Origin: Gonapodya sp. JEL0774
Lineage: Eukaryota
Length of the DNA: 32,204 bases
Assembly: GCA_027604505.1 (NCBI GenBank)
Contig: JADIIX010000011.1
Coordinates: 248,001 to 280,204 of the forward strand
Reading direction: 5' to 3'
The notes beneath the pieces were generated by a model, which was not told the origin of the DNA, did no database searches, and saw only the letters and a list, made by a program, of their open reading frames with translations. Position numbers and translations under genes: made by a program. Of the stretch, positions 8,251 through 31,600 are shown piece by piece. The number at the start of each line of letters is the position of its first letter. Position 1 is the stretch's first letter.

Positions 8251-9183
8251 TGATGCGAGTTCACAGATTCGATGGTGGAGTGGGATAACAGAAGGGCAGA
8301 AGGAAGCGGACCGAGGAAGCGGGGCGGACAAGCAATAGAAAGGATCAAATAGAGATAGCAGCACCGGAGCAGCGCGGGGTGAGTGCATGAGTGGGGGCAG
8401 CAGCAAAGAAGGTCCAAGTTGAGCGACACGTTCCCCCCCCGCATCGCCCACCCCGTATCATCACTGCGACTTGATCAAAAGACACGTCATTGCGACTTCA
8501 ATATTGCGGATGGCCATCTTCAAAAAATTCATGTTTCCTTGGAGCATAGTGGTTCAGGGAAACGTCATATGACCCTCATTCCAACATTCTGTGACCGTAT
8601 ATTTTTGTATCACATCTCCGCCTGTGTCCCCTGTGGATTCACTCGGTGCTGAAAAGTCTCGCCACGGGATTGATGCATCGCTGCTGAATCAGTCACCGTC
8701 ATCAAGGTACAAATCTCCTAGAGTCTGCGACAAATCTCCCACAGGAACTCGTCACCGCGTCGAATCAGTGCAAAACGCTCATCATCCACCATCCCCCGTT
8801 GATGGCAGGATTCGCTGCAAATCGATCGATTCCTCCCCACTACCGTTTCATTCATACGGCATATCGCTTGCCCACGGCAAATCTCTCGTTTCGCGGCGTT
8901 TTCTCTTGGAGGAGGCCGAATCGCGCTACCAGTCAACACTTGGTTCATTGGTTGGTGAGTTATTTAACCTTTGCTCGTTGATTTTTTCTTGACATCTTAC
9001 CAAGCTTCATGTTGCGACCTTTCCTACTCTACATCTCCCTTTGGCCCCGGCATCTGCATCGCTCAACTCCCTCTCACCCAATCAACCCTCCCCATACACT
9101 TGCTAGCGTTTTACCTCCCATCATCCCATTGCCCCATCCCACCTTCTACCGAGAACCCTCAACCTTGGCCACCCACCAACCCC

Positions 9184-9193
9184 NNNNNNNNNN
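9184..9193. other. Assembly gap (10 N) in a C-run
   Basis: N run flanked by poly-C. Confidence 0.95.
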
Positions 9194-9215
9194 CCCCCGC
9201 CCTACTCAGACAAAT

Positions 9216-10700
9216 ATGTCTCGCAGAAGGAGAGTGGCCAGGCAGAACAGCACTGCCAAGGAGAGAAAGACAATGAACATCCAATCTATTGGGCGAACTG
9301 CTGAGCAAGCTGCCCAATACATTGGATCTTCATCCTCTAAGAGCTAGTAGCCTGCCCTAACAAAGGGAGGAGGGGTGCTGTGGCTGGCTTGTGGGATTTA
9401 TGTGCAGATTACCAAGGAAGCACTCTTGGAAGCAGAAAACAAGTTTGAGGCTGGGAGAACTGTGAGTGATGTTTGCATTGCATTCTGTCCACCAGATGAT
9501 GGTCACCAACTCCATGTCCCATACGTCTGGTAAAGGTGGAGTTGCCACCACAGCCACCATTAACAAGCAGAGCCAGGGAATCTCCCGCAGTGATGGGTCA
9601 GAGGAGGAATGGAAAGGGCCTCCATCACCTACACTGGATCAACTGAAAGAGGAGCAGGGGTACGCAATGTTTGGTGATCATGCGCCAGTGGTGAACCAGA
9701 TGCTCACAGACAGCCACAGCCAGGTGCTTGGCATGCAAGTTGCCGGTGCCATACTGTGGAGCAGCATGACCTTTTCTACAGAGGGCTCAAGGGGCATCGC
9801 AATTTTCAAGATGGGAACAACTATTCCCACAGGGTAGGTAAATGGTTTATGTACTGTCCAGTTCCCGAACCAGTGGCCTATCAATCACAGTGCAAAGCAG
9901 AGCTCAATTACACTTCCACCAGCTCAGAGACCAAGGAGAGGGTTCAGACTATATTCACTGTTGCTGATGCACTAGCTCTGCAAGTCCAGCACACAGGGTT
10001 GGGTATTGACTGCCCCTCTATGGTCAGATTGCTATTGGAAAGGTGTGGAACAAGTAAAGTGGACAAAAAGTACCAGAATTGCAGGCAGGCTCCAGTCCAT
10101 CATCTGGCATCACCAGCTTTGCCAACTTGCAACTTTTATTTTGGAGGAATCACTTGCTCTTGTCTGGGCCTCCACACAATATACATGATAAAACGTACTC
10201 CCATTCCTTTATCTACACATTCAATGAGCGTTATGCAGTCTCCTGTCAGATCTGCAAAGGGAATGGAGTTGTGCTGGCAGTCTTAATGCTGGGCCCATCT
10301 GGCAACCCCATGGTGCTGTTCTTCAGGGCGGCAGCAGGGGACCTCATCATGATAATGGCCAGGATCATGTGCCACAAAGTCATTTGAACTTGCCCCTTCT
10401 GTGGACCCTGAAGGATCAGTCAGGTAGTAGTATTTAACCCTGGGTGAGTACATGTACTCCCTGAAGTTCTAGGGACAGTCAGTGGAGGAGAAGGAGACCA
10501 GTGTGGAAAAGTACCAACTCCACTTGAAAAAGCGCAGAGGACTTTCAAAGGTGCAAAAGAATAAGGAGATGGATGCCCTGAGAAAGGTGAAGCAGGGAGA
10601 AAACTCCCAGGATCTGGAAGAGGAAGAGGAAGGGCAATGACAGGAAGAAGCAGGAAAGGAGGAGACAGGACCACATGACTGGGTGTTAGAGGTTGGTTTG
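9216..10700 (+). pseudogene. Decayed TET/JBP-family 2OG-Fe(II) dioxygenase
   Basis: CTC CAC AC- AAT ATA CAT GAT (10170-10189) reads L-H-T-[D>N]-I-H-D with a 1-nt deletion (HxDxxD/N; compare TET HKDIHN). GDLIMIMARIMCHKVI*TCPFCGP*RISQVVVF (10337-10435) supplies the distal His and RxSxV (compare TET GSxLIECARRELH...RISLVFY). One intron at ~9462-9495. The 3' end is approximate. Confidence 0.75.
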
Positions 10701-11243
10701 CTAGCGTCAGACAGTTGATGGGTGTGGAAGGCCACATTGGTGGAAGAGGAGTGGCGATGGGGAAGTAAGATGTTGGAGCAGAGCCCCTGTGGTTGGAGGG
10801 CACTGGCTGTAGCAGGCACTCTGCTTTGAGTATGAAACAGCGCACGGGAACTGCGAGTCGGCCATGAGGGGTTATTTGAATCATGGGAAACAAAATTATT
10901 TGAATGTGAAAAGCTAGATATGTGTGACCCGTCTAAGGGTCACTACCAGAGTCGATCATAAAGCAGAATACTGTGACAGAAATGTAATGAACGAGAGCAA
11001 AAGCCAATACAGACAAGCCTCTGTCTCACCTGTGACAGAGTGGACTCTATCAATATCCCATTTTTTACACCCCCCATGCAACTGACCACCCCCACCCTGC
11101 AAACAGGTACCCCCATCATCAAATCTGGAGCAGTGTTAATGTATTTTATGATGACAACCATAATAAATCTGTGAAACTGCTGAGGCTAGATTGTGCCAGT
11201 GTTCACATCACAAGTTGAGATGATTCTGATGGAGATGAATTAT

Positions 11244-13722
11244 TCAAACGCAAGGTTTATACAAATGAAGCATAGGCGATCTTCCACCTCTACGTGTCAT
11301 ACGTGCAGGGCTGGGCTCTGTGGGCACTTGGGGGGCCTGTTGCCGACACTTTGGAGACGATTCTTGTGGGACAGATAAGTGGTTGGGATATGAATACAAT
11401 GAACACAACCTAAAAGTACTCACCATCTTCATTTGGTGCTTGACGTCCATGCTGTAGTGTCCTTGGTTCAGGCTTTGGAGCTGAAAGGGCAGCATTCAAT
11501 CTAATTAGTTGAAGGGGTACATGAACACTACAACAGATCAACTTACGTTCAGGTTCCTTTTCCTCTTCTTTCCCTTCTTCCCCTCCATCCCCATCTTCGT
11601 CATCTTTGTCATCACTCTCATCTTCTGAAGATGTGATGTCTGGGTGCTTACTGAGAGAACTGTCAGAATCTGTCAGTGTAGCACAGTTAGTAAGCACTTA
11701 CAATAAACATGGATTGTGAGAGGGCACTTACCACTGTCCTGAGTACCAGCAACCTTGGCCTGGAGGTTGAGGTACTTAGTGACATCTGAGGAAACACATG
11801 TCAGTCCCTTCAGATATTCATTGCTTTAGTATGTCAATGAGAACTCACCTAATGGAGCGCCACGGCTTTTTCTTTCGGACTGAACCTACCATGGTGACTA
11901 CAAACATTGAAACAGCAGTGATGTTATGCATATGAATGTGTTGTAATAACAGACTCACGTGCTTTAGGGACTTTGATGGACACATTGTTGTCAGCTTCAA
12001 CAACATGCACCTCAGACTTGCTCTTTGCAGTGTGTTAAGGTGTCGTTGCCATGCAGAATGTTGACTTGACATAGCTGAGAAAATCGCGTTTGCGAATCAG
12101 TCTAAACAGAAGAACATTGTAAGAATGTCACAGGTAACAACAGTAAAGTTGGCCTCACTTGTCAAAAACCTCTCCCATGTCTTCAGTGGACTTGGTCTCC
12201 AGGTCCATTAAGTGGCTGTCAAGTGAGGAGTTAAGAAGATCATCAAGTACCCACAATGTGCACTTCCTGCCAAGAAGCTTCATCATGCCACGACCAAGTT
12301 CCCAGTGCTCATACTTGGAACTGCAATGTTGCTGTCGGAGTTGCTGATGAGGGTGAGAACCTTCATCCAGAATGCTGTTGGGAGAGGTGGAACGGTGAAG
12401 AACAAGACCTTCTTCAGGGCTTTCTTGGACTCTTGAGGGGCAGTATAAGTCTATATGACAAGAACAAGAGAAAGCATCAAAATGTAATGAGTGAAGAGAT
12501 ACATTTGAAATTGTAACTCACCAACATGTGGACCCAAGACATTGGCCAATGCGCACGAGCAGCGCCACTTGGAACTTCACCAGTTTAGAGACAAGGGAGA
12601 TTTCAAGGAAAAAAGCAGGTGAGCAACAGTGTTGGTGGTAGTGTAGGGCGAAGCTTCTTCCCGCAATCCTTGGTTGATTTGCAAGAATGCTGTTCATACG
12701 CAAAGTGGAGGAGCGAATGCACGTGAACCCCAGCAGAAGTGAGGTGCTTCAGAACCGCCTCGTACTGCAGAAGATCCAATTGCTGGAGCACAAAACTTGT
12801 GAGTGAAACGTCCACAAACAAAATTGCAATAAACCTACCTTAATGAGTATTCCTTTCAGCAAGAGCAACTTGATGCGTGTAATGTCATGTGGCTGTCAAA
12901 GTTGTGTGTGAAGTGGAGGGTGACAGAGCAGTGAACCTGTTGTTGATTGTTCTTTCTAGGAGCGATGTCTATTAGATATTGAAAGAACATGAAGTACAAG
13001 AAACAACTCACTGTTGACGTACTCTTCGGCAAGTCCTGTTTCTGGTGACAATGAATGCTGGTTACTCAAAACAAACTGCCACCAAATCGGTGGACAGCAA
13101 GATTCACTTCACCTTTTTCCTCGCCTTTGCTCCCAAGCCCAAGATGGTCTTTGCATCCCTGAATTACCTGGGCACATGTTGCAGTGCCAGGAAATGTATC
13201 TTAAAGAGCCACATGACATAACAAAGCTCTGATGTGCCAACAAACGTCTTCTGGAGTATCTTTCTGCAAGCGAGAAGCATGGTAGGATAGCAAAGCGAAA
13301 GTGAAACTTGAGCTCACCTTCAACACAATTGCACTGACCTCAAGCAAACCGTCCAACAACCCCGGAAGAGTTTGGTACTCAACTCCGTCAGCCTGCAGAT
13401 GGAAAATGGCAATCAGTCAGTAGTTTCCATTGACAATGCCAGAAAAGCATCTGCCAAGTGGGAAGAGGATGAAAATGGACATAGCAACAAAGCCTTGACC
13501 AATGAGGATACCCCTGCCAGATGCAGTGTTACACAAGCTTCCTCCATGCAACACCAACATGGTGAACACATACTTCAGAACAGTGATCCTGGCTTCATAA
13601 CGTTTGCGAACAGGCATGCACGTGTTCATCTTGATCTTCTTGATTGGGATTTGCCTCAATTCTGGCTTGTGCTATCTCCTTAGGAGTTCAGCAATAGAGG
13701 TGGATCCACAGACGTTCGACAT
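11244..13722 (-). pseudogene. Decayed multi-exon gene: ParB/Srx-like N-terminal domain + degenerate beta-class (N6A/N4C) DNA methyltransferase fold + acidic tail
   Basis: ParB-like part: IPIKKIKMN..VRKRYEARITVLK|GILIGQGF..IFIL..SGIV[N<D]GNY[*<R]LIAI (GxxR signature). Phase-0 exon chain 13263-13012, 12955-12839, ~12764-12522, 12450-~12159. It contains LLCHPPL and PTAFWMKVLTLISNSDSNIAVPSMSTGNLVVA(C)MKLLGRKC..LD, which is in register with the PxxLxxxLI..SNPGDxVLDPFMGSGTTxVACxxLGR consensus. Start ATG at 13722 is tentative. Confidence 0.65.
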
Positions 13723-13849
13723 GATGCTGAAGTGAAAGATTGGACAAGAGTTTTTTGGAAATGCTTTTGAGTGGCGATAATAAATGTTGCTGCACTTTTA
13801 CGTTCCAAGATGGCAGTCAGTAAAGCAGATTGTTTTGAAGAGAACTGCA

Positions 13850-16270
13850 GAAGACTCACACCACAGCAAACATTCCCACACCTTTTTTACAGCCGCCAAC
13901 CCACCCTCAAGTCCCCACTCTGCGAGTTGATCACGTGTCTTGTTTTTGAAAGAATTTGAAGGACTGGGGAAGGCAATTGAAGGATATCAAACAACTGTCA
14001 GTAACACAGAATGTTTTGAAGATAATTACAGAAGACTCACCACAGCGCGTACTCCCACACCTCTTTTTACAGCCACCAAGCCCACGTGACATCCCCACTC
14101 TGTGCATTGCTCAGGTGTCGAGATGTGGTATGGGGGTTGCAAGTGTGCTGATATTACAAACTAAAAGAGTTTCAAAAACAACCAAGCACTCACTGTTCTC
14201 TCCATGAGGCTGTAAGGGCCAAACTTGTATGCTAGCAGATCATCTGAGTGCTTGGGTCTCCACCACTTCTTGAGAAGGTCGACATGTTGATTGGTGCTAG
14301 GCAGCAATTTGAGCACCTGGACTGCTTTTTCCAATTCGCCTTTGGACTTGGGGTTTCAGAGTTGAAAGAACTTTGTTGCTTTGAACAAGTTGCCAAGAGA
14401 ATCCTGTATTGCTAGGATCACTTCCAGGAAGGCCAGAGTTTTATCAAGTAGAAACATGAGCACATCACTTGATGGGGTGAGCTCCCCCTCCAGTCAAAGG
14501 GACTTCTCGTCAATCAACAAGTGCAGTATCATTCTGATTGAGTAGCAGATCAACATTCCTGGGCGACAAGAAACAGATGCAATGGTTTTCTCACAATACG
14601 AGCATCTGGAACGCCCCTCTTGCAAATCCCAATGTCACTGGGGACTTGCCCATACTAATGTGTTGTGTCGTGCTGGCAAATATTATGGCACTTCCAGGAT
14701 CACATAGGTCCCTGACGTAGAGGACCAGACACGGTTCAGTTGATGACCTCAGAGGGCACTGCCATTCACTAAAGCAGGGCTCAGTTTAGCAACATGTCGC
14801 TTATGCAGTCAGAAAGCCCATAGTTTGCTCACATTGAGCTAAAATGCTTGTATGATACTTGTACCCTCCAACTTCCGGAGACATGCCAAAATGGTCTATT
14901 GATCCTGTACTTGCCTGGTGGGCCAGCCACTGTATGTACCAATCCACGATCCACACTTTCCCATGCAAATGCCTTTTCAGTGTCTGTGGTGAACACAGCT
15001 TTGATGGAGTAATCAGAGGTGGTGAACAGAACAGCATCAATTGCATCAGACATGACAACATCTTGCATGCTGGTTTCCTTGATCCCCTCCAACACAGCAG
15101 CAACCACCTTGTTGGAGTAAGATCCAGTTGGGGATTGAAATGGGCCCTGATGTAACAGACAGACAATTGACATGAGATAAATACCTTGTTGCATGCCTAT
15201 GGGTTATCAAATCAGCTTGGTGTGGTAGTCCTTGTTCCATGCAAAGGCCCCGTTCACTCCAATGGTGGTGGAGAAGTCACCGCTCCAACCCATTTAGATT
15301 TTCCTCTGGCTTTTGCAGATGCCTGCCCAAATAAGGTTTGCTGCATCCGTGTCCCAAAACAATATGGATCATTACCATTTTTCATACTGGTTATTATTGG
15401 TAAAGAAACCTTGAGTCAACTTTCTCACTTGGCAGTCATTCATCAATCATTCTCACTACTTTACGCAGACGTCATCCTCGCATTTTACTGCTCGCAATTT
15501 CTTTATTGAGCCACACGGCGATGCTTTGAATGGTGGGTGCGAGGTTTTGAGCCAGATGGCTGCCTGCCAACGTTGGAAATTGGATATGGCCCATTGAAAC
15601 ACAAAGTCAATGGATGAAAAACAAGGTGGGCAACACCAAAAGATATCTACATACCTTTTGTGTCCTGGATACTGGGAGGTCCCTAGACATTTTCCTGGCA
15701 GATACAGTGACGCAGACATCTTCAAGGGTGGGGTTAATTGTGTGGTTGAATGGCATGACCTCGTTGTTGTTGCCCAACTTGGTGTGAATAAATGTGGACC
15801 AAATTGCACCTGATGGCAGAATTTGTGAAATGATGTTATCAGTATGTAAATCAGTTGGTTGACCACTGTGAATGAACACCAAGCAGGAATATCTTACCTT
15901 GCGATCTCTTTTGCCCCAGATATCAGCCAAAGGTGGCTGGCATGGGTGTTTTATTCTTTTTCTGTGTGATGACCTTTGATTCGCGAAGCACCTGCCCAAG
16001 ATTGTATCCTATCAGAAATCAATGAATCATGACTCAAATATACAGGGAGTGTCACCATCTTACAGAAACTGTATTGGCGTTTGAGATTTCACCTTCTTAA
16101 CCAGTCCACCCTAAAATAGATGGGGCAAGGAGAAAGGGAAGGTCTGTTACTCTTCCATTATTTGATCATTCTTCAGATCAAAGCTACATATTGCTGACTC
16201 ACGTCGTTGTCCCCTGGTCTTTCCGTCCCTGCTCAGTTGCTCCAACCTGTGGCATGTCACCAAGAGCAGT
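13850..16270 (-). pseudogene. Decayed multi-exon gene of unknown function within the island
   Basis: Repeated gtgagt/gtaaga/gtatgt donors and (c/t)ag acceptors on the minus strand flank interrupted reading frames, e.g. ORFs 15607-15999 and 14829-15194. No family recognised. Confidence 0.4.
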
Positions 16271-17723: not shown

Positions 17724-20700
17724 ATGGACACTTTCTATGGCGAGCAGTGTTCTTCGTCTGAGCGTCTTGCTGCTCTGCTGACAGCAAGCATGTTACCTCC
17801 TGCACGTCCTTCAATCTCGTACAAGCACACGGACTTGTCTTCTGCCATCCCACTCGATACTGCAACAGCTGCAAAGACTCAACGAGCTCAACGAGTTCAC
17901 GAGGTTCTCAATTCATCCCCTTCATTCTCACACACAAATCTCGCGTCTCCCTCAGTAATAGATCGAAACCAACTTGATGGATCCTACAGGGCCGTAGTGG
18001 ATGAGATTCGGGCAGGGAACGCTGGAGCCAACTTCCCTGGAGGTGAAGACGCATGGTCCACAGACTTTGACGGTGTTTTGGGAGATCCTACGCCCAATAG
18101 CAAATTGATTAGGGCTCCAGATGATTCGGTGAGACATTTTTCAACGAAAAGCGTCGACGTGAGCAATCGAGGACTCCGTGGCAGCGGATCGAGCCCCTCT
18201 TCGTTATCTCCGACTCCAACTCCATTCGTCCACAAAGGCTCCGCGGGTGTTCTGGGCCTCGCCAATAGAATATCAAAGGCGTTAGGTGTGGTGCAGTGTG
18301 ACAGTGTTGGGCAGAACGGAAGTGGTGGTGGGGAGCACGTCCGCCCGCAACCGCGAGATACTTCAACTGCCTCAACTACCTCCAACCACCTCTTTACCGT
18401 CACCACCAAACACCTTGCTCTGACGTCTCTCGGCTCCCTCTTTCTCCTTCTTGTGTACCTCATGTTCCCTCTATCTCGTGATCCTCCCTTCGCGGGAGCT
18501 CCCAATATCTTGACATCGTTCTCCCTGTCGCGCAACCCGTTTGCCGACCTTTCTGCAGAGCGATGGGAAAATGAGTGGCGTGGCATGGGAGCCGATCCAG
18601 ATGTCATTGCGGCCGGATATGACATGGATGGGGAGAGGGTGGGATGCGTACCAGGCGGCAGTTCATGCTGGGAATGGGAGACCAGATTTTACGTACCCAT
18701 GTGAGTGACTGGACCGCTCCACTTGATCTAAGAACGCTCACGATCGACAGAACATCACTCCAAAAGCACCTGGCAAAGGATCCTACAACCTTCCAGCCCC
18801 AACACCGTCGCACTCGTATTTGGAGAACGCGGAACTGGCAAATCTACTCTGCGCATCTTGGCCGAGCAGATTTTTCGGCGACGGCAGGGAGAGGCGGGCG
18901 TCGTGGGAGATGGGATGGGATTCGGAAATGTGGACGTGGTGCGCGCGACGCAGCGTGGCGCTGGGTGGTTTCGGAAGTCGGAAAAGGAGTTTGGGAAAAA
19001 GAACGCAAAGCGGAAAGGATTAATGATCGATATTACTCCTGAAAAGGTTCGCGCCCGCTCCTGATATCCACAATTCGTTTTCCCTGTAAATCCGCATTGA
19101 CAGTCCCCTACATCTGCAACCGTAGCACTCTCTCAACATCTTCTTCCCCGCTCTTAAGCACCATATGTGGCATACGTGCACACTGCTACAGCGGATCATT
19201 CATACTCCGGAGTCATATTGGGGACTGGAATTTGACCGCGAGTTTACACTGGCAGATTTTGGGGACATGGTGCTAGCGAGAGGAATCAGTTTGATCGTGG
19301 ATGAGGCTGTAGACAGGTGAGCTCGGGAGGAGATCAGTAGAAAAAAACCTTGTTCGATCCGCGTATCCCAGTGCACGCACGCTGAACGTTTGCCAGTGTT
19401 CGCAAAACCAACCAATGCTCTCGTCACTGCACTTTGTCTTGATTCGCCAACTTTCTTTGTGCCCTCGACGACTCCCGTTATGTCTCCCCTCTTTTCGTTC
19501 GCACTGTCCGGTGACCTCACCCTGAATCTCCCGTGCCCAGTTCCGCTCGCATCCGCCCACCAGCCGTTCGCGCCTTTCGACTCCTCGGATTTTCTTCCAC
19601 CGAGAAGAAATTGGACAATTATCTGGGTGTGGGGGAGGCCACGGCGGCACAGGTGGGCCATTTCTTGATTTTTGTCACGAGTGATACCTGCACTGTTAGG
19701 ACCCGTCCACATCCACAGCTGGGGCTCTTCGCCGCAACCTACTACATGGGACCCTCTGACCGGCTTGAAACCTTTTTGGCCCTGCTTCGCCCGAGCAATC
19801 AACCAACCACATCCTGGCCCGCTCTCTGGACACTGTTCACCTCCAACATCATCCACCTTTCGTCCCAAGTGATGCTTCTCTGGGGCCGCTGGTCCGTAGT
19901 GATAGGTGTGACTCTCTTGGTCCTTTGGGCTAACTTCGCCGCGGGGGATGTGGTGGATGTGGCTGCGAAAAGTAACAATGTCCTCACAAAGACCGTCGTA
20001 GAGGTTCTAGTGCTACTTTGGTGTGTTTGGAGGGGAGTTGCTCTGTACAACTATGTCGCCAGTCTGGGCGCGAGCCCAGCGGCGCTGTGGTCCTGGGCAA
20101 CGGCGCTGTTGTCCCCCATAATCTCTGTGCGCTCCCAAAAGCCGTATGGCATTGCTTCTCTGGACCAGTCGTATGCTCTGCCACCACCTACAGGCCCCGT
20201 CGATCACCTCCCGTGGACACCACGCCCGGTGCGAGTTGTCCCACCTTGGCAGGGCAGAGAGGAGGCGGGTTCGCGGTATGCCGAGGCGTGCAGGAGGTTG
20301 AATTTAGGGTGGGAGGGGGACTCAGCGATGGGGCGATTGAAAAGGTTTCGAAGCGTCGTGGACGAGTTAGGAGTGGGGGAAGTGGTGAGTCGGAGAAGTG
20401 CGAGTTGCTATTTAGGGTGCTTGCGAAATGATTTTCTTTGCCTCCATCATGCAACACTACGACCGTCAAGGCCATTCTCGTCGACGGTGTTGACGAAACG
20501 TCGCTCTCCTCTATGGCAAGTTATCCACGCGTTTTGCCCCGGTTTGCTACCACCGTGATGGACCACGCCCTGTTTGAACTGTCTATGGATCGAACCATGG
20601 ATACGAGGTGAGGTGGCTCAATCGATATTTATGGAGTTGGAAGAAGTGCGAAGTTGACTCGCTCTCTGCTGCACAGCTTTTGGTTCTTCTTTCCGTTCAG

Positions 20701-21509
20701 TTTCGATACCGTGGGGAGCAGGAGGGTCAAGGAAAAGGGGAGACTGGATAAGTATGGATGGATTGAGCGTGAGTAGTCAGGGCGAGCGAAGCTGGAACCG
20801 CACCTTTTGAGCATTGCTCGGTCACATAGTGTTGACTGTTGTTGGCAAATCTCTTTCTTATCTTTGTTCCCTGACTTGAACGCTTCCTGGATACAAAATT
20901 CATGCCCCCCCAAAATTCAACGGGTACATACATTCCTTCAACACCAGTCCACTTCGACTCTGCCGATCTCATCCGAATAGCTTCGAAACGATTTTCTGCG
21001 TACCAATTGTGTCGGAACGCGGTTACTTTTCCTACTGGCACCGGAATGCAAGGGGCGGCCTTGAAGAGCGGGGGTGTACGGTGGTGGTTGTGGGGAAAGG
21101 AGAGTGGGAAGGAACAGCGACAGGGTCAAGCATTGGGATTCAAGTACAGTGAAGTGTGTAGGAAGGGGTTTTGGGATTTGTTTTGTGAGGAGAGTGAGAA
21201 TTTTGCAGGATCAAGGGATGGTGGGGACCGAACCAGTGGAGTTGGAAGCGACTCAAGTAGTGAAAAATCGTGGGTTTTTGATGTGGTGGAAAGGACCGAC
21301 TGGCTGAGGACGCCGAGGTAAGTTGTTTCGGTTTTTGGTTTTGATATGTGGCTGGCACAGCACACAAAATAAGCATGACTGTCGACGACCTTTCCTCGCT
21401 CTGTTCTTTTGTGTGTGTTCATGTACATAGACTCATGTTGAGTGTGATGAGAACCGTTTTTGAGCGAACCGCGGGTGTGAGTTATTTGCAAATTTGTCTT
21501 GAGGGGTAG
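17724..21509 (+). CDS. Membrane-anchored P-loop NTPase with TM segments inserted between Walker A and Walker B
   Basis: Phase-consistent exons 17724-18700, 18767-19046, 19126-19316, 19541-19652, 19719-20384, 20471-20607, 20677-20768, 20948-21317, 21431-21476/21509. Motifs: RNPFAD, FYVPITWQRIL..TVALVFGERGTGKSTLR (Walker A), EVAILVDGVDE (Walker B), RLDK..IELHF and LRTPR. Hydrophobic spans: LALTSLGSLFLLLVYLMFPL, WSVVIGVTLLVLWANF and VVEVLVLLWCVWRGVAL. The 3' end is uncertain. Confidence 0.8.
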
Positions 21510-22789
21510 GTAGGTATTTGCCTCTCGTCTCATCAACACTACCCCACAAATGCAACACAGAAATACCAAAACTCAACCATGAGTCCAACTGATCAGTGCG
21601 TGACGCGAGAAGAGCTTATGCGGGTATTGAAAAGTGTGGGTGTGATTTGCTCTGCTTTTGTGTAAGTTAACCTCACCCGAACTTGCATTTGACACCCCCA
21701 GCCACCCCCCGAAGCTCTGGTGTAGGGAGGCTGATATGCACTGTATTTTCATTTTCGTTTTCAATGGAGCACCAATGCAAGTGCAGTTTTGCGAGATTCA
21801 TGTATTAATTACAACAGGGCTTCAAAATGTAAATGGGCTCTGCAACTGTCTTACCAAAAATTAAAGACAGGCATACTAGGAGAAGAATATCTTGTCACTA
21901 GCGACCTATGAGCAACTTTGAGACTGGTATGCTGTCCTTTAACTGAACAACAGCATAAGACGATTCTCTTGTGAGCAGCAACGGTTCCGAAAACGGAATG
22001 TCCGTGATAATTTGTCCATGAATATTATTGCGTTTTTGTCCATGAACAAAACCAAACAGCAGAGAAAGAGTGTGGTACTTCTCTCGGCGCATATCATTGA
22101 CGACCGGAACTTAACTGTGGAGTGTCTCTGTAACCATGCGGCGGGGCATATCCAAGAGGGTTGTTGTAACCGTGGCTAGACATGATTCAGGGAAGAGAGC
22201 GGGCAGTAAGCTTCCGGGGAGACAGAGATAGGTCCCCGAGTGCAGAGTGCGCCGGCGTTGGAGATGCGACACAGTGGCAAGCAGAGATGGTGTTGATGAT
22301 GATAAAGCGGGAAAGACAGTTACTAGGTACATCCTGTAATAGTGGTACTCGAACTGGGAAAGAGTCTTTTACCAAGACTACCAGAAAAGTGGCAATGACA
22401 AGACAATTACATAGACTAAATGTATATGATTATGGAAACACAAGAAGCGAGTGGCGATAGTACCAAATGCATGTGAATGCTTGTGTGATTCGAGGTCGGT
22501 GTCCAGCGGAAAGACAGCTATGATAACTCCAATCAGAATCAAGCGAAGCGGACTCATTCGACCGGGCAAAAGAACGGAAACTCGTGAGAGAACTGGACGG
22601 TGCCCCTTGTTTACGTGCATTATGGGGTTTGTAATAGGGACTTTTTTGATGTGTTGAGGCCACTTCCTTCCAGCAACCCTCGCGAGCGCCCGTGCTCAGG
22701 TTCAGCCACAACCCCTAAGACCGTTCTTATTGGGCAACAGATCGCAATTATAAAATCAGATCGAATTGCAGACAACGAGAATCAGAGCG

Positions 22790-25700
22790 ATGCTCAACCG
22801 ATCCACGTCATCATCCAAGCATTTGGTTAGAGCGCCCGTTGTGCTCCTGTTGATTGTTGCGGCTTTCGGGACGTTTTTCCGCGCTACCGCCGTCGCCGTG
22901 CATACGCAAATTGGACGTAAGTACAGAGGAGGCCTCGAGCGATTTATACATGAAGCGCTTTCGCAGTGCCTTTTCACCTTGCAGCCGAAAATGCAAGTAA
23001 AATCAGGGGTCGAGCTCCCATCGTGTCTCCACTCCCGCCCGATGATCCTGGCCCAACCCCTCCGCCTCCCCCCCCCCCTCCTGATCCACCATCATTTGTG
23101 AATCCTCTGATAATTTCTTCGTCGCCAGTAAGCTCGCCGGTCACACTTGCTCTTTCCCCACTAACCTGCGTCTTTGTCCTTCTCACCAGACTAGTACGTC
23201 GTGTTGTTCCCTATCAAGCTGCAACAATGGGGCATGCAGATCGTGTACAGCTCCTGGATACCCCTTTCTATGTGTTTGTGGGTCGATGCATATGAATGTT
23301 CTACTCCTGCTCAAGCGTATTAACTTGGAAGCGGTTTACAACAGCTGGAGTTGGGGGATCAACATCAGGAGATCAATGCTGGAACTCCCCATGCGAGGAT
23401 AATGGGCTACAAAGCGCGATTCAAGATGATGGAACATGCTGTGTGAGTGGCACCAGTGCCTTCATCCTCAACTCCGATTTTAAGTGTTTCACCCAAACCG
23501 GTTGAACTTCAGGATACTAGACCTTTGATACAAAAAAATGCATCGGTAAGATTTTGTTTTGCAGAACGCTATGTGAGCCATGCGGCTCAAATGGAACTTC
23601 CTGCAGAGTGGCTGTTGTGCAGTGGGATCCGTGTGCTCGTCGGGATATTGCTACAAATGCCCTCCAAGTCTAATAACTTATGAGTTTAGTTGCCTATGTG
23701 AGGCATGGCTCTTCAGATTTGCATTTCACGCAGTTACTCAATCTCTTATTGCTCGCTCTCTCGCTCAGTTCCGATTAACGTCATTCCCAGAAAGCGCCAG
23801 CTGAATCAGGAAATCAGATGTTCTCGAACGAGTTGCGCTGTATTGGGTTATCCACCAGCTTTTACTGCATGACGGCACGTGTTGTGTGAGTAAAGAGAAA
23901 AGTTTGCCGCTTTTCCCACACTGAACTGTGTGTGAACGGGGATATGAAGCCACCCGTCACAACATCTGTTATAAGCACCCTCACGACAACGAGTTTCACA
24001 CCCACATCATCCTCGACAACGAGTTTCACACCCACATCATCCTCGACAACGAGTTTCACACCAACATCATCCTCGACAACGAGTGTCACACCCACATCAT
24101 CCTCGACAACGACTGTAAGCACGACCGCCACCTCTTCCTTGACAACAAGCTTCACTCCATCGACATCCGTGACGACATCATTGACCACAAACGTCACCGC
24201 AGCAACATCCGCGACGAGCACCAGCGCTATATTCGTAATAACGACTATCAGCCCAACGGCATCTGCTTCAAGCGTTCTCACGACTACGGTGACAGTGGCT
24301 GTCACCACAACTACGATGGTACTCGGCCCATCTACTTCTTCAGCAGTGATAACTACACCAATCGGTCAGACCTCTCCAGCTTTGCCCCCAGCTTCGTCAA
24401 TAGCTGGGCCGCCGCCGCAGACTACAACTGTCCTCGCAGCACCTCCAAGCACCACACCTGGTCCAGCGGTATCCTCGCAGCCTCAGTTCTTTTCCGCTGG
24501 AGTGTTCCTACCCTTTCCACCCTTGGATCTTTTTCCGACAAGTTCTTCGGACACACCCACTATCACAGTTCCTCCTCAAACGGCATTGCTAATACCTCCA
24601 CCCTCATCGTCACTCTCGTCTAGTTCAGTTGTTATTTTACCATCGCCAACAGTATCTGCGAACGCGGTGGCGCCAGAGTCGCCTCCCAGCAACCCGCCGC
24701 CTCCGACCACTGTTGGCGCAAACGGAAGTGCCGACACACCGAATGCGCCGAACACTCCCGCAATCGTGGGAGCTGTTGTGGGGAGCTTGGTTGGAATTTT
24801 AATAGTTGGAGGGATTGTGAAATATGTGTCTCAGAAGCCGAATCCGAATGCGTGTGTAGTCGCTGCAGCCAAATCGATTTATTGGTATTCTCAGGTGTCT
24901 TCTTTTGTTGTTCAGCGATCCATCCACGCCGCCAGGTCCACCCGACTCAACGCCTACAGGCGCACACGCAACGGAAAATGGCATCGCACGAGCTGTTGTT
25001 AGCGCTCCGATCGCCACAGGTGCCGGTTCGGGTGCTAGCGCTGGTGGGAGCACGAGCGGAGGCGGACTGGCTGGAAACACGGCGTCCCCACAATATTCCG
25101 TACCACACGCTCCCTCTGGCGTTGGTACAAGCATAGCAGGGGCTCCTGGACAGGTTGCAAGTCCGGTCGGTGTGGGTGGAGGTGGAGGGGGAACGGCTGG
25201 AGCGATCAGCGGAGCTCACACAACAGGAACGGTATCGGCGACCGCCACTAGCGGTGCTACAATTCCAGGAACGGGAGTCAGTGGTACAACAACTGGTACC
25301 GTCGGAGGTCTCGGTGTGCACGGAAGTGCAACTTCGGGATTGGCAACCGCCGGTGGGAACCCTGCGACATTTACACCGGGCTGGGGAGCGGCTCAAACAG
25401 CCACTGGGAGCGCCACCACAACTTCGGGTTTGGCAACAGCAGGAGGTGGGAATGCCGCAACAATTACACCGGCCTGGGGGGCAGCTCAAACAGCCACTGG
25501 GAGCGCCACCGCAACTTCGGGGTTGGCAACAGCTGGAGGTGGGAATGCCGCAACAATTACACCAGCCTGGGGGGCGGCCCAAACAGCCACTGGGAGCGCC
25601 ACCACTGCAATTTTGCCTGCGAATGCCGCCACCGGGCTCGCGAGCACAGCTCCCACTGTTGCGCACTATGCCACTGGCGCAGCCTCAACGACGGGCGCAA

Positions 25701-25954
25701 TCGCCTACCTGCCATCTAGCATGGCCGTTACTGCAGGAGCGGCTTCTAAATCTGCGGTGGGAGCTGCCTCTGTTGGGCCAGGTGGAGCATTCAGTGGCAT
25801 GGGCCCTGTTGGATACACAGCCGTAGGTGTTGAGGGGCAAGTTGCGAGGGCAGCATTGATGGGAGCTGGTGTGGCAGCTGCGACGACGAAGACTACTGGT
25901 ACTGGAGCGAAGGGTGATTCTTCAAGAAGGAGAGACTATGGTGGACCCAGATGA
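22790..25954 (+). CDS. Type I cell-surface protein: signal peptide, Pro-rich linker, 2 Cys-rich modules, Ser/Thr mucin stalk, TM helix, Gly/Ala/Thr repeat tail (one apparent frameshift)
   Basis: Signal-like APVVLLLIVAAFGTFFRATAVA. Cys exons 23190-23277, 23345-23442, linker 23513-23545, 23607-23697, 23769-23885. Stalk exon from ~23950. TM helix AIVGAVVGSLVGILIVGGIV. Intron 24852-24915. TGA at 25952-25954. Exon 23769-23885 is 1 nt too long. Confidence 0.75.
23986..24110 (+). repeat. 30-bp coding tandem repeat (TTSFTPTSSS) x~4
   Basis: acaacgagtttcacacccacatcatcctcg repeated nearly perfectly. Confidence 0.9.
25331..25605 (+). repeat. 90-93 bp coding repeat x3 (TSGLATAGG(G)NxATxTPxWGAAQTATGSAT) in predicted cytoplasmic tail
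   Basis: Units start at about 25331, 25421 and 25514. Confidence 0.85.
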
Positions 25955-27004: not shown

Positions 27005-27016
27005 NNNNNNNNNNNN
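27005..27016. other. Assembly gap (12 N) next to a C-rich tract
   Basis: N run followed by gcccgtgccccccccgccccgcccgccc. Confidence 0.95.
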
Positions 27017-28600
27017 GCCCGTGCCCCCCCCGCCCCGCCCGCCCACACCGCATGTCACGATACTAGGGTGCCATCCAACCAAAGGAATCACTTTGTTCAT
27101 TAAATCGAGCAAGCAGGGTTTGTTATAAATTCAAGAGCCCAACAGGTTCGTTCTAGTGTAAATGAGCCCCAAGATATCGCGGGTTCGACTGGGGTGTGCC
27201 GTCGTGGCAATTCACCCTTCCTTCTTCTCGGTGGGGCTCAAGCATTTCAGGTTTGTTCCTCACAAAGTAATCGAAGATCCATTTGATCGATGACGAAGAG
27301 GATGTAGAAAAGTCAATGCTCATGATATGGTGGATATCGACGAATCGCGTCGCGGTCATTCTTCCCCCACGCGATTCCAAGCAGACACACAGAGAGAACC
27401 CATGCAATAGGTCAAGCTCGAGGCCTCAAATCCTAATAGTAGTTGGCGGCTTGCATCCACCAACAGCAATTTGGAGGTGACAAATGTCGAATTGCTGGAG
27501 ACTGCTGATCGCGGACATCTCCTCGTGAACGACTCACAGAAGCTGTGAATGGCTGGACAAGAAACGAGCGATCCGTCTAATTTTTTTTTTTTTGGACCCA
27601 GGGTTTAGGTAAGTAAGGTTTCTGAGGTCCAAAGCCGATCGAGCGAGGTGTTGCTGACATGATATGCTTCCTGGTTCCCTCCTGGGGACCACTGCAGGCC
27701 CCAGAAGCCAAACATTTACGCCAAGAGAGGTTCGGAGTCGCAAAACCCATGCATATCGAGAAGATTGCTGTGGAACCCCATTGAGCGTCACACGATAGCT
27801 GCTACGTCTCGCGCAATGACGTTGAGCGCCAAGGAGCGCCGCTTGATTGGTGCCCAACACAACACTGTGTTGGTGTTGGGTGTTCCGTCGCTCTCAGTCA
27901 TCTCACTCCAACTCCCGTCGCCTAATTTTTCCTTGAGCTTCTCCCTTTCTTCAACCCTTCTAACCTTGAACCATCCGGTGTTGGCTCTGCGAGACAAAAG
28001 CTCACCGAGGGTCCAGGGACTGACTCGGGCAAGTTCCGCAAGAACTTTCTCAGGTCTCATTGAGAATGACAGGCAAAGAGTGCAGGGAATCATGTGAGTG
28101 CTCGCAGAATGTGATAGGGGATGTTCAGCGCCGGGTATGTGTTTCGATCTTCTCCCCAAACAGCCGTAGATGTGTTCGTCATTCCGTGTTGCCGACGGTT
28201 CAAAACCAGAAAGTATAAATTCATTGTTTATTCTGGCGCATGAAACGTCGGGCTCCGACTTGCACGAAAGACTTTCATGTGTGTGGGTAGCGATTTGTGG
28301 ATCTGATGTGGTGACGGTCCGACGATGAACGCACAGCCCGATCCCGAAGCAAAGAAATCTTTCGTCAATCAATGAAATCATTGTGATGAGGGAACAAAGG
28401 TGGTGGGAAAAGGAGGATCGATTTCTCTCTCGTCATCTTGTTTTCCGTCATATCCGGGTGTTGTTGGCCATGGGTTGAGGAGAAACCCTTTTGTGCCTAA
28501 GTGAGGCGGTACTCCTGGGGTTGCCGTTCTGCATTCCTATAATACGGTGAAAAACCTTTACGAGTTTTTCGATTTTAAGAGCATCGAGTGGATCAGAAGA

Positions 28601-31600
28601 ATGCGACATCAGCCCTCTTATCGAGCCTCGTATCGGCCTCCGCTGACCCGTATCGTACTTTTGCTCGTGCTGCTGCACGTGGTGGCCCTGGTCTCAGTGT
28701 CAGCGCAACACCCGCAAATACGACACGAACGCGTCCAGGAAAGAAGTCGTGAGTGCGATTTTCTCTCCAAAGGGAGTTATTGCGCGGCTCTGACTTGTCT
28801 CGTGTTTGATTTGCTCCTTCGCTCAATGGTTGCTAGCTCACAAAAATGTTCTGGTGCTGCGAGACGTGAGTCACAAGGTTTCGCAATTTTATGCGAAAGC
28901 CGCATTTTCGACAGTGCTGTCTCACTGTGGTTGCTTGCTTTTCTCCTCGTAGCCACCGAGTCCGCCAAACTCCCCTCCATCTGGGGGACAAACCCCATCT
29001 GTTCCACCCCCCACCTCGCCCACAAATCCCCCACCGACGCCTCCAGACCCACCTTCCGCTCCTCCATCCACTCCTCCATCCAATCCACCGCCTTCTCCGT
29101 CCGAGGTCCCACCATCTCCACCTACTCCCCCACCACCTCCACCTACTCCCCCACCACCTCCCCCACCACCAGCACCGAGTCCACCGCCCCCAGACTTGCC
29201 ACCACCTCCCGCTCCGACCCCTACTTCATCTCCACCACCTCCCACACCTCCTCCCCCTTCACCGTCGCCCCCAGACTTGGCACCTCCTCCCACTCCGACC
29301 CCACCTTCAGCTCCACCAACTCCCCCCCCACCACCGCCTCCACAACCGGCGAGCTCACCGTCCCCAGCCTTGCCGCCTCCGCCCGCTTCTACGCCTGCTT
29401 CATCTCCACCAACCCCCCCTCCACCGCCGCAAGTCCCACCCCCCTCGCCACCTCCAGCCTCAGCGCCCCCGCCGCAACCCTCTGGGCCGTCGCCAATACC
29501 ATCCGCGCCTTCTCCGTCACCAGGTGACTCCTCGGTGAATGCTCCATCTCCGTTTCCCACGGGAGTTGGTATTGCTGCTATCGTTCCAGGGAAGCTACCA
29601 CCGTTCAACCCCGGAGGAATCCCTCCTCCCCCTCCATCGTTCCCAGACCCAGCCCAATGGGTTCCCGAAACATTAACTCCATCTCCCTCCGTGAGTCGAG
29701 ATTACTTCCAAGTCATTTGTTGTCAGTCGAGAATTTCCTGTGCTTCCCTTTCCACCAGTCGAGCACCACCTGTTGCCCCTCCCAATCGGTTTGCAAGGAC
29801 AGTATATGCAGATCGTGTCCGTCCAACTACCCTAATTCCTGTCGCCGTGAGTTGAGTGCACTCCTCCCTTCGAATAGAGCTCACAGGTAACCATTTACGT
29901 TTCACCAAAATAGAAACCCCGACATCTGAGGTTGAATGCCATAGAGAGAATTGCCTGGCGATCGGATATGTATTCGCCTATCCAAGTCTGAACGACGGAA
30001 GTTGCTGCGTGAGTGATTTCGGCCTTCGTTGTTTAATAACGTGACGAGAACTGCCAACCGCAAAAGATTGTAAATAATCCTCGCAGGCTAATCTCAGTCC
30101 AATCCAAGCGTCTCCAGCTGTATGTTTCTCGGACCTTGCGCTCGTGGAAGTTAATCATATACGCTTATCTTCTTTCTTCTGCGGGCTTAGGGTGGTGCTT
30201 GTTGCGCGACAGGTTCCTGGTGCCAATCAGGCACTTGCTACACGTGCCCTCCTGGACAACCAAACAATTGCTTTAGTGAGTTGCTCCCTTTGCATTGTCT
30301 CCTTCTCCTTTTGCATCTTTTGGTGATCTGCGGTGTATCAAGATATGCCCCCGGTTCCTCGGAAGCGCCAAGTAACTCCGGAATACATATGTTCGCGTCT
30401 TTCATGTAGCCCTTCCTACCCGACAGCGCTGTTCAACCAAGAAGATGGCACGTGCTGTGTGAGTTTGCTGAACACGAAGACGATGCCCTTCCTTTTGTGC
30501 ATTTTGTTTCTCACTTGAATTTCTTCGCAACCTTGTGATCACAAGCCAAACGTGCCACCGACCATAACAACAGCGGTAAGCAGTTGCTGCGTGTCGACTG
30601 ATTTCATATTTGAGGAAATTCAGTTGCTTTGGTTTTTCTGGTGTCACGACACTAGACCGGTTGCTGTTCCGCAGGGGCGTATTGCGCTTCCAAGAAATGC
30701 TACACTTGCCCGAGCGACAAACCCTACTATTGCATTAGTGAGTGTGGTAAACTGGAACGTCTGCGATGCAACACATAGCGTTGGTTCGGGGTCGTTGATC
30801 TCTGCATCCTGGACGCAGGCAATTCGGACGATGCATGCTACGCGGTAGATTGCTACAAGATTGGATTACAGCGGGGGTTCCCCTTTATTGATGACGGTAC
30901 CTGTTGTGTGAGTTGTTACTGGCTCTTGGCCATGATCACTCGAACTCACCACCACGTCCATGATGATCACAGCCGGCGCCCGTGCCCCCTCCCCCAATCA
31001 CAAAAACACCTTCGGTGAGTTGAGTCCTCTGTGGAAAACAGATATATTAATTCGACCCCCCAACCTATTCTTCTTTGTTGTGTCTTTTCTGCCACAGGCT
31101 GGTTGTTGCCCAAGTGGATCATGGTGCTCTTCTAAAGCATGCTATACATGTCCTTCGGACTCGCCTTATGCATGCTATGGTGAGCTTCGATTATTGGAAA
31201 CCGCATAGCGCCAACAAGGCCACAAATTCACTCTTGTCTGTATTCCTATATTGTGCACCATCTGTCAGATCGCCGGGTCTTCAGGAAGCGCCAAACTGAA
31301 TCTATATACTGCTACAAGAGTCCTTGCGACCCAACACAATATTTTTATGATGCATTCTCATCAAGAGATGACGGCACATGCTGCGTGAGTTCTCGAGTTC
31401 GCCCGCCATCGACAACACATTAAATTCCCTTGTATTCTCCTTCAAAGTATCCTACGACCACTACCACCAATATCCCAACGACTACTCTCACAACGACCCC
31501 GGGACTGACATCCACCGAAACCAAGACGACAACTGTAACGGTCACTCCAACTCCAACTACTTCTCTGACCGCAACGCTCACCCTAACCTCATCCACCACG

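What the first reader, a model, noticed from the sequence alone, without database searches (positions are those of the whole stretch)
17724..21509. Intron-rich gene for a bacterial-type membrane P-loop NTPase
Seen: the ORF track fragments this gene, but nine exons splice in phase. The protein has an N-terminal disordered region and TM anchor, NPF, Walker A GERGTGKST, two to three hydrophobic segments, then Walker B ILVDGVDE, RLDK and LRTPR. Established: TM helices inserted inside the P-loop domain are the hallmark of KAP-family NTPases, many of which act in prokaryotic anti-phage or membrane complexes. Inference from memory, not from a search: the motif order (NPF..P.W.+I..P.T..VFGE+G.GK..LR..D..L..G+..+VD..VD.VDE..RLDK..LR.PR) resembles an uncharacterised Planctomycete ATPase family. 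That would suggest ancient horizontal transfer or patchy retention.
Basis: partly seen in the sequence, partly recalled or inferred. Interest (0 to 1): 0.78.

Follow-up and report, generated by a model that had tools for sequence, protein, structure and literature searches.

The report
Bacterial-type membrane ATPase in aquatic fungi
This is a real, intron-rich gene of an early-branching aquatic fungus whose membrane-anchored ATPase has its only detected outside relatives in bacteria (an unstudied Planctomycete-rich family and the anti-phage protein DS-41), so it was likely gained from bacteria long ago, and it is predicted to now face the inside of the endoplasmic reticulum.

Summary
The gene is real. 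Its exons match NCBI protein P0001 (Gonapodya) letter for letter. Orthologs support both AAG acceptors, but the best model has 11 exons and ends at 21725, not nine ending at 21509. Named orthologs are all Monoblepharidomycetes (Gonapodya, Hyaloraphidium). The recalled Planctomycete family exists and is homologous end to end (hhalign 99.7%, 20% identity). It is single-copy and sits in stable housekeeping synteny. The KAP label fails its tests. The family is instead a distant branch of the Sll1717/DS-41 ATPases, below both cut-offs; DS-41 is a validated anti-phage gene. The fold is Cdc6/Orc1-like AAA+, and the catalytic motifs are intact. Trees reject nesting the fungal clade inside the sampled Planctomycetes and cannot choose between them and DS-41 as sister. 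An old bacterial acquisition is therefore likely, but the donor is unresolved. The added N-terminal anchor, a partly reversed charge bias around the membrane hairpin, and two fungus-specific cysteine pairs suggest the ATPase now faces the ER lumen, like torsins. That topology is predicted only. No RNA evidence was available.

The parts
17724..18700 (+). Exon 1 (aa 1-326): disordered N-terminus, TM anchor, NPF..L.AE motif. The start codon could also be the later Met used by P0001.
18414..18470 (+). N-terminal transmembrane anchor (aa 231-249); absent from bacterial relatives; predicted N-in/C-out
18767..19046 (+). Exon 2 (aa 326-419) after the AAG acceptor at 18766; Walker A GERGTGKST at 18822-18848
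19126..19316 (+). Exon 3 (aa 420-483); conserved D..D..L helix shared with the bacterial family
19541..19652 (+). Exon 4 (aa 483-520)
19719..20384 (+). Exon 5 (aa 521-742); transmembrane hairpin inserted in the ATPase domain (19896-19946 and 19995-20045)
20471..20607 (+). Exon 6 (aa 743-788) after the AAG acceptor at 20470; Walker B ILVDGVDE at 20474-20497
20677..20768 (+). Exon 7 (aa 788-819); strand 4 and the GRLDK motif (20738-20752), inferred arginine finger
20948..21317 (+). Exon 8 (aa 819-942); lid domain, Cys840, Cys889, Cys898 and the TPR motif (inferred sensor II)
21431..21476 (+).
21561..21635 (+). Exon 10 (aa 958-982); new here, carries conserved Cys970
21702..21725 (+). Exon 11 (aa 983-989 plus stop); new here, weakly supported

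Best explanation
This is a spliced fungal gene for a membrane-anchored AAA+-fold ATPase of the Sll1717/DS-41-like group, likely acquired from bacteria before Gonapodya and Hyaloraphidium split, and predicted to sit with its ATPase domain in the ER lumen, where it would oligomerise and use ATP to remodel membrane-protein complexes.

Shown: the exon structure by homology; orthologs in two Monoblepharidomycete genera; end-to-end homology with a Planctomycete-rich bacterial family carrying the same membrane hairpin; weaker homology to DS-41; intact Walker A, Walker B, RLDK and PR motifs; and a Cdc6/Orc1-like fold in the model.

Inferred: horizontal origin (about 0.7); inter-subunit catalysis through an arginine finger, hence a ring or filament (about 0.7); a three-pass topology with the N-terminus and hairpin loop in the cytosol and both ATPase halves plus two disulfides in the lumen (about 0.5); and a housekeeping membrane-remodelling role rather than defence (about 0.55).
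For: Homology. hhalign of fungal against bacterial profiles gives 99.67%, E 2e-25, over 464 columns (99.07% with the window model). With Walker A masked, 8 of 10 fungal proteins still score 12.7-23.9 bits (the paralogs P0007 and P0011 score 0.1 and -3.0), while reversed controls score at most 1.5 bits. In 10 of 10 searched carrier genomes the fungal profile found a match at E<=0.01, lying on this gene.

Distribution. A search of 1.84 billion representatives returned 11 hits. The named ones are all Gonapodya or Hyaloraphidium, four are unnamed family members, and one is a repetitive false hit.

Fold. The AF2 core has pLDDT around 90. The top VIA matches are Cdc6/Orc1 (Z 13.9, rmsd 3.9, 253 aligned).

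Luminal side. The 15 residues before the anchor are net basic in 6 of 8 distinct proteins, and those after it are neutral or acidic in 6 of 8. The hairpin loop is net basic in 6 of 7 fungal versus 19 of 69 bacterial proteins. The hairpin flanks have net charge of +1 or less in 5 of 7 fungal proteins, versus +3 or more in 69 of 69 bacterial proteins. One Cys pair is present together in 5 proteins and absent together in 3. A second pair is present in all 7 fungal proteins that reach the region, leaving aside the divergent P0009; it flanks a predicted beta-bridge, F885-V938 in P0002.

Housekeeping. The bacterial gene is single-copy in 22 of 22 positive genomes. In 25 of 70 loci it has a conserved phosphomannomutase neighbour, and in 14-15 of 70 a DinG or UvrD neighbour.
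Against: No transcript, localisation or activity data exist. P0004 and P0005 keep basic hairpin flanks (+8, +5), and the window protein's own loop is neutral. N-glycosylation sequons are not enriched in the core: 15 per 130 Asn, versus 5 per 46 in the N-termini and 92 per 979 in bacteria. The bacteria also keep two conserved cysteines in the lid (69 and 63 of 70), so cysteines alone do not prove an oxidising compartment. The fungal stem branch is long (2.37), and fungi plus the TM-type bacteria have only 74/39 support. The single-sequence search missed even the bacterial homologs, so equally distant eukaryotic ones could also be missed. There is no polar sensor-1 residue; strand 4 ends in Pro.
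Confidence: 0.4

Rival explanations
1. Same origin and fold, but the ATPase domain stays cytosolic as in bacteria. The extra N-terminal hydrophobic helix is re-entrant or has an N-out orientation, and the protein remodels complexes on the cytosolic face of a membrane.
For: Two of 7 orthologs keep strongly basic hairpin flanks. Sequons are not enriched, and the bacteria also conserve lid cysteines. ATP supply is simplest in the cytosol (established knowledge).
Against: The charge bias of the first anchor, the long hydrophilic N-terminus without an evident signal peptide, the basic hairpin loop, and two fungus-specific Cys pairs.
Confidence: 0.27
2. It is a co-opted bacterial immune ATPase. Like DS-41 or Tmn, it senses a viral or parasite protein, oligomerises, and opens or disturbs a membrane through its hairpin.
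For: The best family match is DS41_1_antiphage (27.8 bits for P0001, 62.6 for P0005). DS-41 is a validated single-gene system (PMC13092281 passages and supplement rows). A fungi plus DS-41 clade is not rejected (p 0.39). Gonapodya carries degenerate paralogs. Tmn, an unrelated hairpin NTPase, works this way (bioRxiv 10.64898/2026.03.01.708804 passages).
Against: Scores are far below the 370-bit cut-off. DS-41's C-terminal extension is absent, and DS-41 lacks the hairpin. The hairpin-type bacterial genes are single-copy in stable synteny, not in defence islands. There is no PADLOC match beyond weak Walker A hits. No repeat sensor domain is present.
Confidence: 0.15
3. It is not a fungus-specific acquisition but an old eukaryotic gene, retained patchily or too diverged to detect in other lineages.
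For: The fungal clade is not nested in any sampled bacterial subclade. P0009, an unnamed metagenome fragment, joins the fungal clade on a long branch (97 SH-aLRT, quick tree). Search sensitivity was limited.
Against: All named eukaryotic hits come from two genera of one class. Retention would need very many losses. G. prolifera is reported to take up foreign genes often and to intronise them (PMC11291939 passages).
Confidence: 0.14
4. It is a KAP-family NTPase.
For: Two TM helices lie between Walker A and Walker B. One ESM Atlas cluster is auto-named KAP, and lower-ranked clusters carry PF07693 on 10-61% of members.
Against: There is no PF07693 hit in P0001, in 10 homologs or in 70 bacterial members. 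PF07693 does not ring at this gene in 5 carrier genomes. Walker B reads hhhhD[GR]hDE, not the KAP-type DDLDR (recalled).
Confidence: 0.04

Closest known systems
Unnamed Planctomycetota-rich hairpin ATPase family (about 500 aa, annotated 'hypothetical protein'; loci L001-L114)
   Same: Collinear NPF..E[ED]A, Walker A, D..D..L helix, TM hairpin, D[RG]hDE Walker B, RLDK, W....L......R and PR motifs; no C-terminal extension.
   Different: The fungal proteins add a 100-240 aa disordered N-terminus and a TM anchor, have 10 introns, carry different conserved cysteines and show a shifted charge bias. Identity is only about 20%, and the fungi are not nested within this family.
DS-41 anti-phage ATPase (NCBIfam NF053860; DefensePredictor, PMC13092281)
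   Same: Homologous ATPase core (hhalign 97.7% over 158 columns; E 1e-6 to 3e-17 for P0001-P0005).
   Different: No TM hairpin or anchor; has a C-terminal extension of over 100 aa; sporadic and sometimes plasmid-borne.
P-loop ATPase, Sll1717 family (NF047389)
   Same: Same N-terminal [DN]AE-type motif before Walker A, same Walker B type, W and PR motifs.
   Different: Scores are below the 75-bit cut-off (best fungal 45.9); these proteins have no TM segments and form the outgroup in the trees.
Cdc6/Orc1 initiator-clade AAA+ ATPases
   Same: Best structural matches (Z 13.9-11); arginine-finger-like and sensor-II-like arginines at equivalent places (inferred).
   Different: No sequence match; no winged-helix domain; membrane-anchored; no polar sensor 1.
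Tmn/YobI and KAP NTPases
   Same: Two TM helices inserted within the P-loop domain (passages for YobI).
   Different: No profile match and a different Walker B; the shared hairpin is likely convergent.
Torsins
   Same: Analogy only: membrane-attached AAA+ ATPases of the ER lumen with conserved cysteines, stated to be absent from fungi (bioRxiv 10.1101/2025.11.07.687155 passages).
   Different: Torsins are Clp-related, and no sequence or family match was found. This protein keeps its own RLDK arginine, and its luminal location is only predicted.

Membership tests
KAP NTPase | Match to Pfam PF07693 | tested here: not met
   0 of 1, 0 of 10 and 0 of 70 proteins; no ring at this gene in 5 carrier genomes
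KAP NTPase | TM helices inserted between Walker A and Walker B | tested here: met
   Hydropathy and AF2 helices. The criterion is recalled; the preprint assigns this trait to YobI instead.
KAP NTPase | Walker B of the DDLDR type (recalled; source paper not held) | tested here: not met
   Reads ILVDGVDE / LVDRVDE
KAP NTPase | Structural match to a solved KAP domain | tested here: inconclusive
   None listed; library coverage of KAP unknown
YobI/Tmn | [quoted passage not shown] | tested here: met
YobI/Tmn | Profile match | tested here: inconclusive
   None listed in PADLOC, NCBIfam or Pfam; presence of a Tmn model in those libraries was not verified
DS-41 (NF053860) | Score of 370 bits or more | tested here: not met
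   27.8 (P0001) to 62.6 (P0005); control P0037 scores 414.7
DS-41 (NF053860) | C-terminal extension after the lid; no TM segments | tested here: not met
DS-41 (NF053860) | Antiviral activity | not testable with these tools
   needs an assay
Sll1717 ATPases (NF047389) | Score of 75 bits or more | tested here: not met
   P0001 not listed; orthologs 21.1-45.9
Sll1717/DS-41-like wider group | Significant collinear homology of the ATPase core | tested here: met
AAA+ fold | Alpha/beta P-loop core followed by a helical lid | tested here: met
   VIA Z 13.9, rmsd 3.9, 253 aligned to Cdc6, on the model of ortholog P0002
AAA+ fold | Arginine finger after strand 4 and sensor-II Arg in the lid | tested here: inconclusive
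   R794 and R910 of P0002 are at least 90% conserved at the expected positions; function in trans not tested
AAA+ fold | Polar sensor 1 on strand 4 | tested here: not met
   The strand reads FWFFFP / KMLLP
STAND/NACHT | Walker B hhhhD[GAS]hDE (recalled consensus) | tested here: met
   ILVDGVDE
STAND/NACHT | Effector plus repeat sensor domains and winged helix | tested here: not met
   None in Pfam scans or the model
Widespread eukaryotic ATPase family | Orthologs across eukaryotic groups | tested here: inconclusive
   None found, but the searches also missed the 20%-identical bacterial homologs
Torsin-like luminal AAA+ (works like) | ATPase domain in the ER lumen | not testable with these tools
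   Only indirect charge and cysteine evidence

The most novel reading that the evidence does not exclude
An early aquatic fungal lineage captured a bacterial membrane ATPase from the group that includes the DS-41 anti-phage system. By adding one signal anchor it flipped the whole enzyme into the ER lumen and stabilised it with new disulfides. The result would be a second, independently evolved torsin-like luminal AAA+ machine, in a kingdom thought to lack one.
Probability: 0.3. Interest if true: 0.85.

Novelty: new variant of a known kind. Interest (0 to 1): 0.58.

Why it matters
It identifies a eukaryotic branch of the Sll1717/DS-41-like ATPases that I did not find described (searches; the G. 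prolifera accessions are absent from the two held supplements of PMC11291939). It also defines an unnamed, conserved Planctomycete membrane ATPase family. BLAST-based transfer screens would miss the link at about 20% identity. If the luminal topology holds, it is a clean case of topological inversion after gene transfer, and an enzymatically complete analogue of torsins. If the defence reading holds, it adds a bacteria-to-fungus immune link. Both readings can be tested simply. It also corrects the public gene model at two acceptors (18766, 20676) and at the C-terminus.

Tried and rejected
RNA runs: no RNA holder was listed, which is no evidence either way; junctions rest on homology. No whole genome is held for the window, so synteny and copy number could not be checked; DNA context for the unnamed proteins P0004-P0006, P0009 and P0013 was not obtained.

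Pfam gave no hits for P0001. PDB sequence searches found nothing meaningful. The single-sequence AF2 model was unusable (pLDDT 36). Foldseek had no match at E<=0.001. Word-based searches did not reach the bacteria. Plasmids gave no match for P0001 or L010. Viral contigs gave no relatives with A3 or A2. The metagenome scan covered 11 of 64 parts and returned one divergent bacterial member, L179.

One search was meant to sample Bacteroidota but re-sampled Planctomycetota (32 of 301 positive). Bacteroidota, Actinomycetota, Bacillota, Cyanobacteria and archaea were therefore not surveyed.

The 50-row careful tree did not finish; the 26-row tree did. Left out of the 26-row tree were the partial proteins P0006, P0008, P0009, P0011 and P0013, most near-redundant bacteria, and L135. 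The hairpin and C-terminal columns were dropped from both trees.

The sequon test was negative. The original KAP paper is not held. Earlier scan findings: none. No complex prediction was run. Rejected: assembly contamination or chance splicing (eukaryotic neighbours, 10 canonical introns, orthologs in two genera), and a recent transfer (long stem, host-like GC).
Full report
Observation. Splicing nine exons between 17724 and 21509 gives an open 956-aa frame with canonical GT..AG introns of 66-224 nt. A search with exon 2 returned P0001, named by its source as Gonapodya sp. JEL0774 hypothetical protein HDU93_000617. P0001 is identical to the window's exons and differs only in splice choices. The neighbouring genes are eukaryotic: RRS1, CRAL-TRIO and TIG_SUH. 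The finding is a genuine fungal nuclear gene.

Gene model. A search of 1.84 billion representatives gave 11 hits at E<=0.001. They are P0001 itself, the G. prolifera ortholog P0002 (43% identical), Hyaloraphidium P0003, unnamed P0004-P0006 and P0009, the Gonapodya paralogs P0007, P0008 and P0011, and a repetitive false hit, P0010. A profile search added P0013. I scored every alternative AG acceptor near each junction, and retention of each intron, against a profile of nine other members. The best model has 11 exons and 989 aa (517 bits). Both AAG acceptors win, as do 20676 and 20947, and the gene runs on to 21725. The nine-exon versions score 465 and 500 bits. Introns 4 and 10 are only weakly favoured. 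P0006 and P0013 end exactly at the residue where the window's intron 6 falls, which suggests a shared intron position; this is inferred, as their DNA was not seen.

Bacterial relatives. The ESM Atlas pointed to Planctomycetota clusters of 509-534 aa (score 0.93). A degenerate Walker A motif retrieved 114 loci from 5 of 64 parts of the genome collection; 107 of 114 are Planctomycetota by title. Of these, 113 translate to one family. 70 were full length, 39 ran off the locus end, and 4 were short or lacked the N-terminal motif and were dropped. Because the motif selected them, I tested homology without it. With Walker A masked, 8 of 10 fungal proteins still score 12.7-23.9 bits (P0007 and P0011 do not), P0009 (which has no Walker A) scores 28, and reversed controls score at most 1.5. 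Profile-profile alignment is end to end: 99.67%, E 2e-25, 464 columns, 20% identity. In 10 of 10 carrier genomes the fungal profile's matches lie on this gene. The family occurs in 22 of 151 sampled Planctomycetota genomes, always once. It also occurs in some Verrucomicrobiota, Myxococcota and one gammaproteobacterium. Its neighbours are lineage-stable housekeeping genes, and the sources that name it call it hypothetical.

Family placement. KAP fails: PF07693 hits none of the fungal or 70 bacterial proteins, and it does not ring at the gene in five carrier genomes. NCBIfam instead lists DS41_1_antiphage and ATPase_Sll1717, both below cut-off. DS-41 is a single-gene P-loop defence system validated in E. 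coli (PMC13092281, passages and supplement rows). The fungal profile scores the 70 hairpin-type proteins at 29-66 bits and five DS-41-type proteins at 26-47 bits. An AF2 model of ortholog P0002 (50 sequences, mean pLDDT 68, core about 90) best matches Cdc6/Orc1 AAA+ modules (Z 13.9, rmsd 3.9, 253 aligned), followed by TnsC/MuB, DnaA and STAND proteins.

Origin. With the hairpin columns removed, a 26-row LG+C20 tree gives three supported groups: fungi 100/100, hairpin-type bacteria 98/96 and DS-41 96/92. Fungi plus hairpin-type has only 74/39. Nesting the fungi with Planctomycetia, with the Phycisphaerae/Verrucomicrobiota/Myxococcota group, or with the divergent pair is rejected (p 0.003, 0.0007, 0.02). 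Fungi plus DS-41 is not rejected (p 0.39). The fungal stem is long, so these tests share the model's weakness. The shared hairpin, the lack of a C-terminal extension and the higher profile scores favour the hairpin family as sister. An old transfer from an unsampled or stem bacterial lineage fits best. Patchy retention remains possible, because the searches were too weak to exclude eukaryotic homologs at 20% identity and P0009 is of unknown origin.

Mechanism. Walker A Lys, the Walker B acidic residues, the RLDK arginine and the PR arginine are intact in the window protein and at least 90% conserved across 50 fungal and bacterial rows. By position, the two arginines correspond to the arginine finger and sensor II of AAA+ proteins (established knowledge; inferred here), which implies oligomeric ATP hydrolysis. 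In bacteria the hairpin flanks are strongly basic and the loop is neutral, the positive-inside pattern for a cytoplasmic enzyme (69 of 69 with flank net charge of +3 or more). The fungi add an upstream anchor with an N-in charge bias after a long hydrophilic region, which would place the ATPase in the lumen. In agreement, 5 of 7 fungal hairpin flanks have lost their charge and 6 of 7 loops are basic. Two fungus-specific Cys pairs also appear: one co-varies, and the other flanks a predicted beta-bridge. Against this, two orthologs keep basic flanks, the window's loop is neutral, sequons are not enriched, and the bacteria have their own conserved lid cysteines. I put the luminal topology near even odds. 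I favour a membrane-complex remodelling role over defence because the closest bacterial family behaves as a stable single-copy gene.

Literature seen. PMC13092281: passages and three supplement rows. The Tmn preprint 10.64898/2026.03.01.708804, the torsin preprint 10.1101/2025.11.07.687155 and PMC11291939: passages only. A search of the two held supplements of PMC11291939 did not list the G. prolifera accessions. The bioRxiv supplements could not be seen and might list such homologs. The original KAP paper was not available, so the KAP and NACHT Walker B consensus motifs are recalled. Searches listed no paper on this family.

Verdict. The gene is real, and its bacterial homology is solid. It is a new eukaryotic variant of the Sll1717/DS-41-like ATPases, not KAP. 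The donor and the function are unresolved. The most striking feature, inversion into the ER lumen, is a testable prediction.

Noticed in passing
window 9001-16000: A 7-kb CpG-depleted block (observed/expected 0.23-0.40, versus about 0.9 elsewhere) directly upstream of the gene. It has only short ORFs, no Pfam hits in 8 tested, and a degenerate duplication of about 181 nt at 13816-14119. It is likely a methylation-decayed transposon or pseudogene region.
   Followed up: partly
window 7059-8222 (-), 720-1202 (+), 2751-3224 (-): RRS1 ribosome biogenesis gene, a CRAL-TRIO domain exon and a TIG_SUH (CSL-type) domain exon: ordinary eukaryotic neighbours.
   Followed up: partly
window 28600-32204 (+): A proline-rich, likely secreted gene with repeated mini-exons ending in a GTCC-coding stretch before GT donors, plus Thr-rich and poly-Pro tracts; no Pfam hit in the ORFs tested.
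   Followed up: no
window 22800-25950 (+): An intron-containing gene or genes with Ser/Thr-rich tandem repeats (about 23970-24110, 25370-25600) and a hydrophobic segment near 24760-24830; mucin-like.
   Followed up: no
window about 9184-9193 and 27005-27016: Short assembly gaps (N runs) beside C-rich tracts.
   Followed up: no
P0007, P0011, P0008: The Gonapodya paralogs are degenerate. P0007 and P0011 lack the hairpin and the RLDK arginine; P0008 as annotated lacks Walker A and has an altered Walker B. They could be inactive partners or incomplete gene models.
   Followed up: partly
P0009: An unnamed 194-aa metagenome fragment that groups with the fungal clade on a long branch; the only hint of a member outside Monoblepharidomycetes.
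   Followed up: partly
L072: The record title says Chitinophaga, but its genome falls in the same phylum sample as the Planctomycete G001.
   Followed up: partly
L179:6294-7781; L158; L166: A divergent basal subgroup of the hairpin family; L179 lies after a nucleoside-utilisation gene cluster.
   Followed up: partly
L017, L032, L034: Bacterial copies with early stops or frameshifts, possibly assembly errors.
   Followed up: no
L148:3007-4515: A DS-41 member (414.7 bits; same 1509-nt length as the paper's CDS) on a conjugative E. coli plasmid, near RES-domain and RelE/ParE genes.
   Followed up: partly
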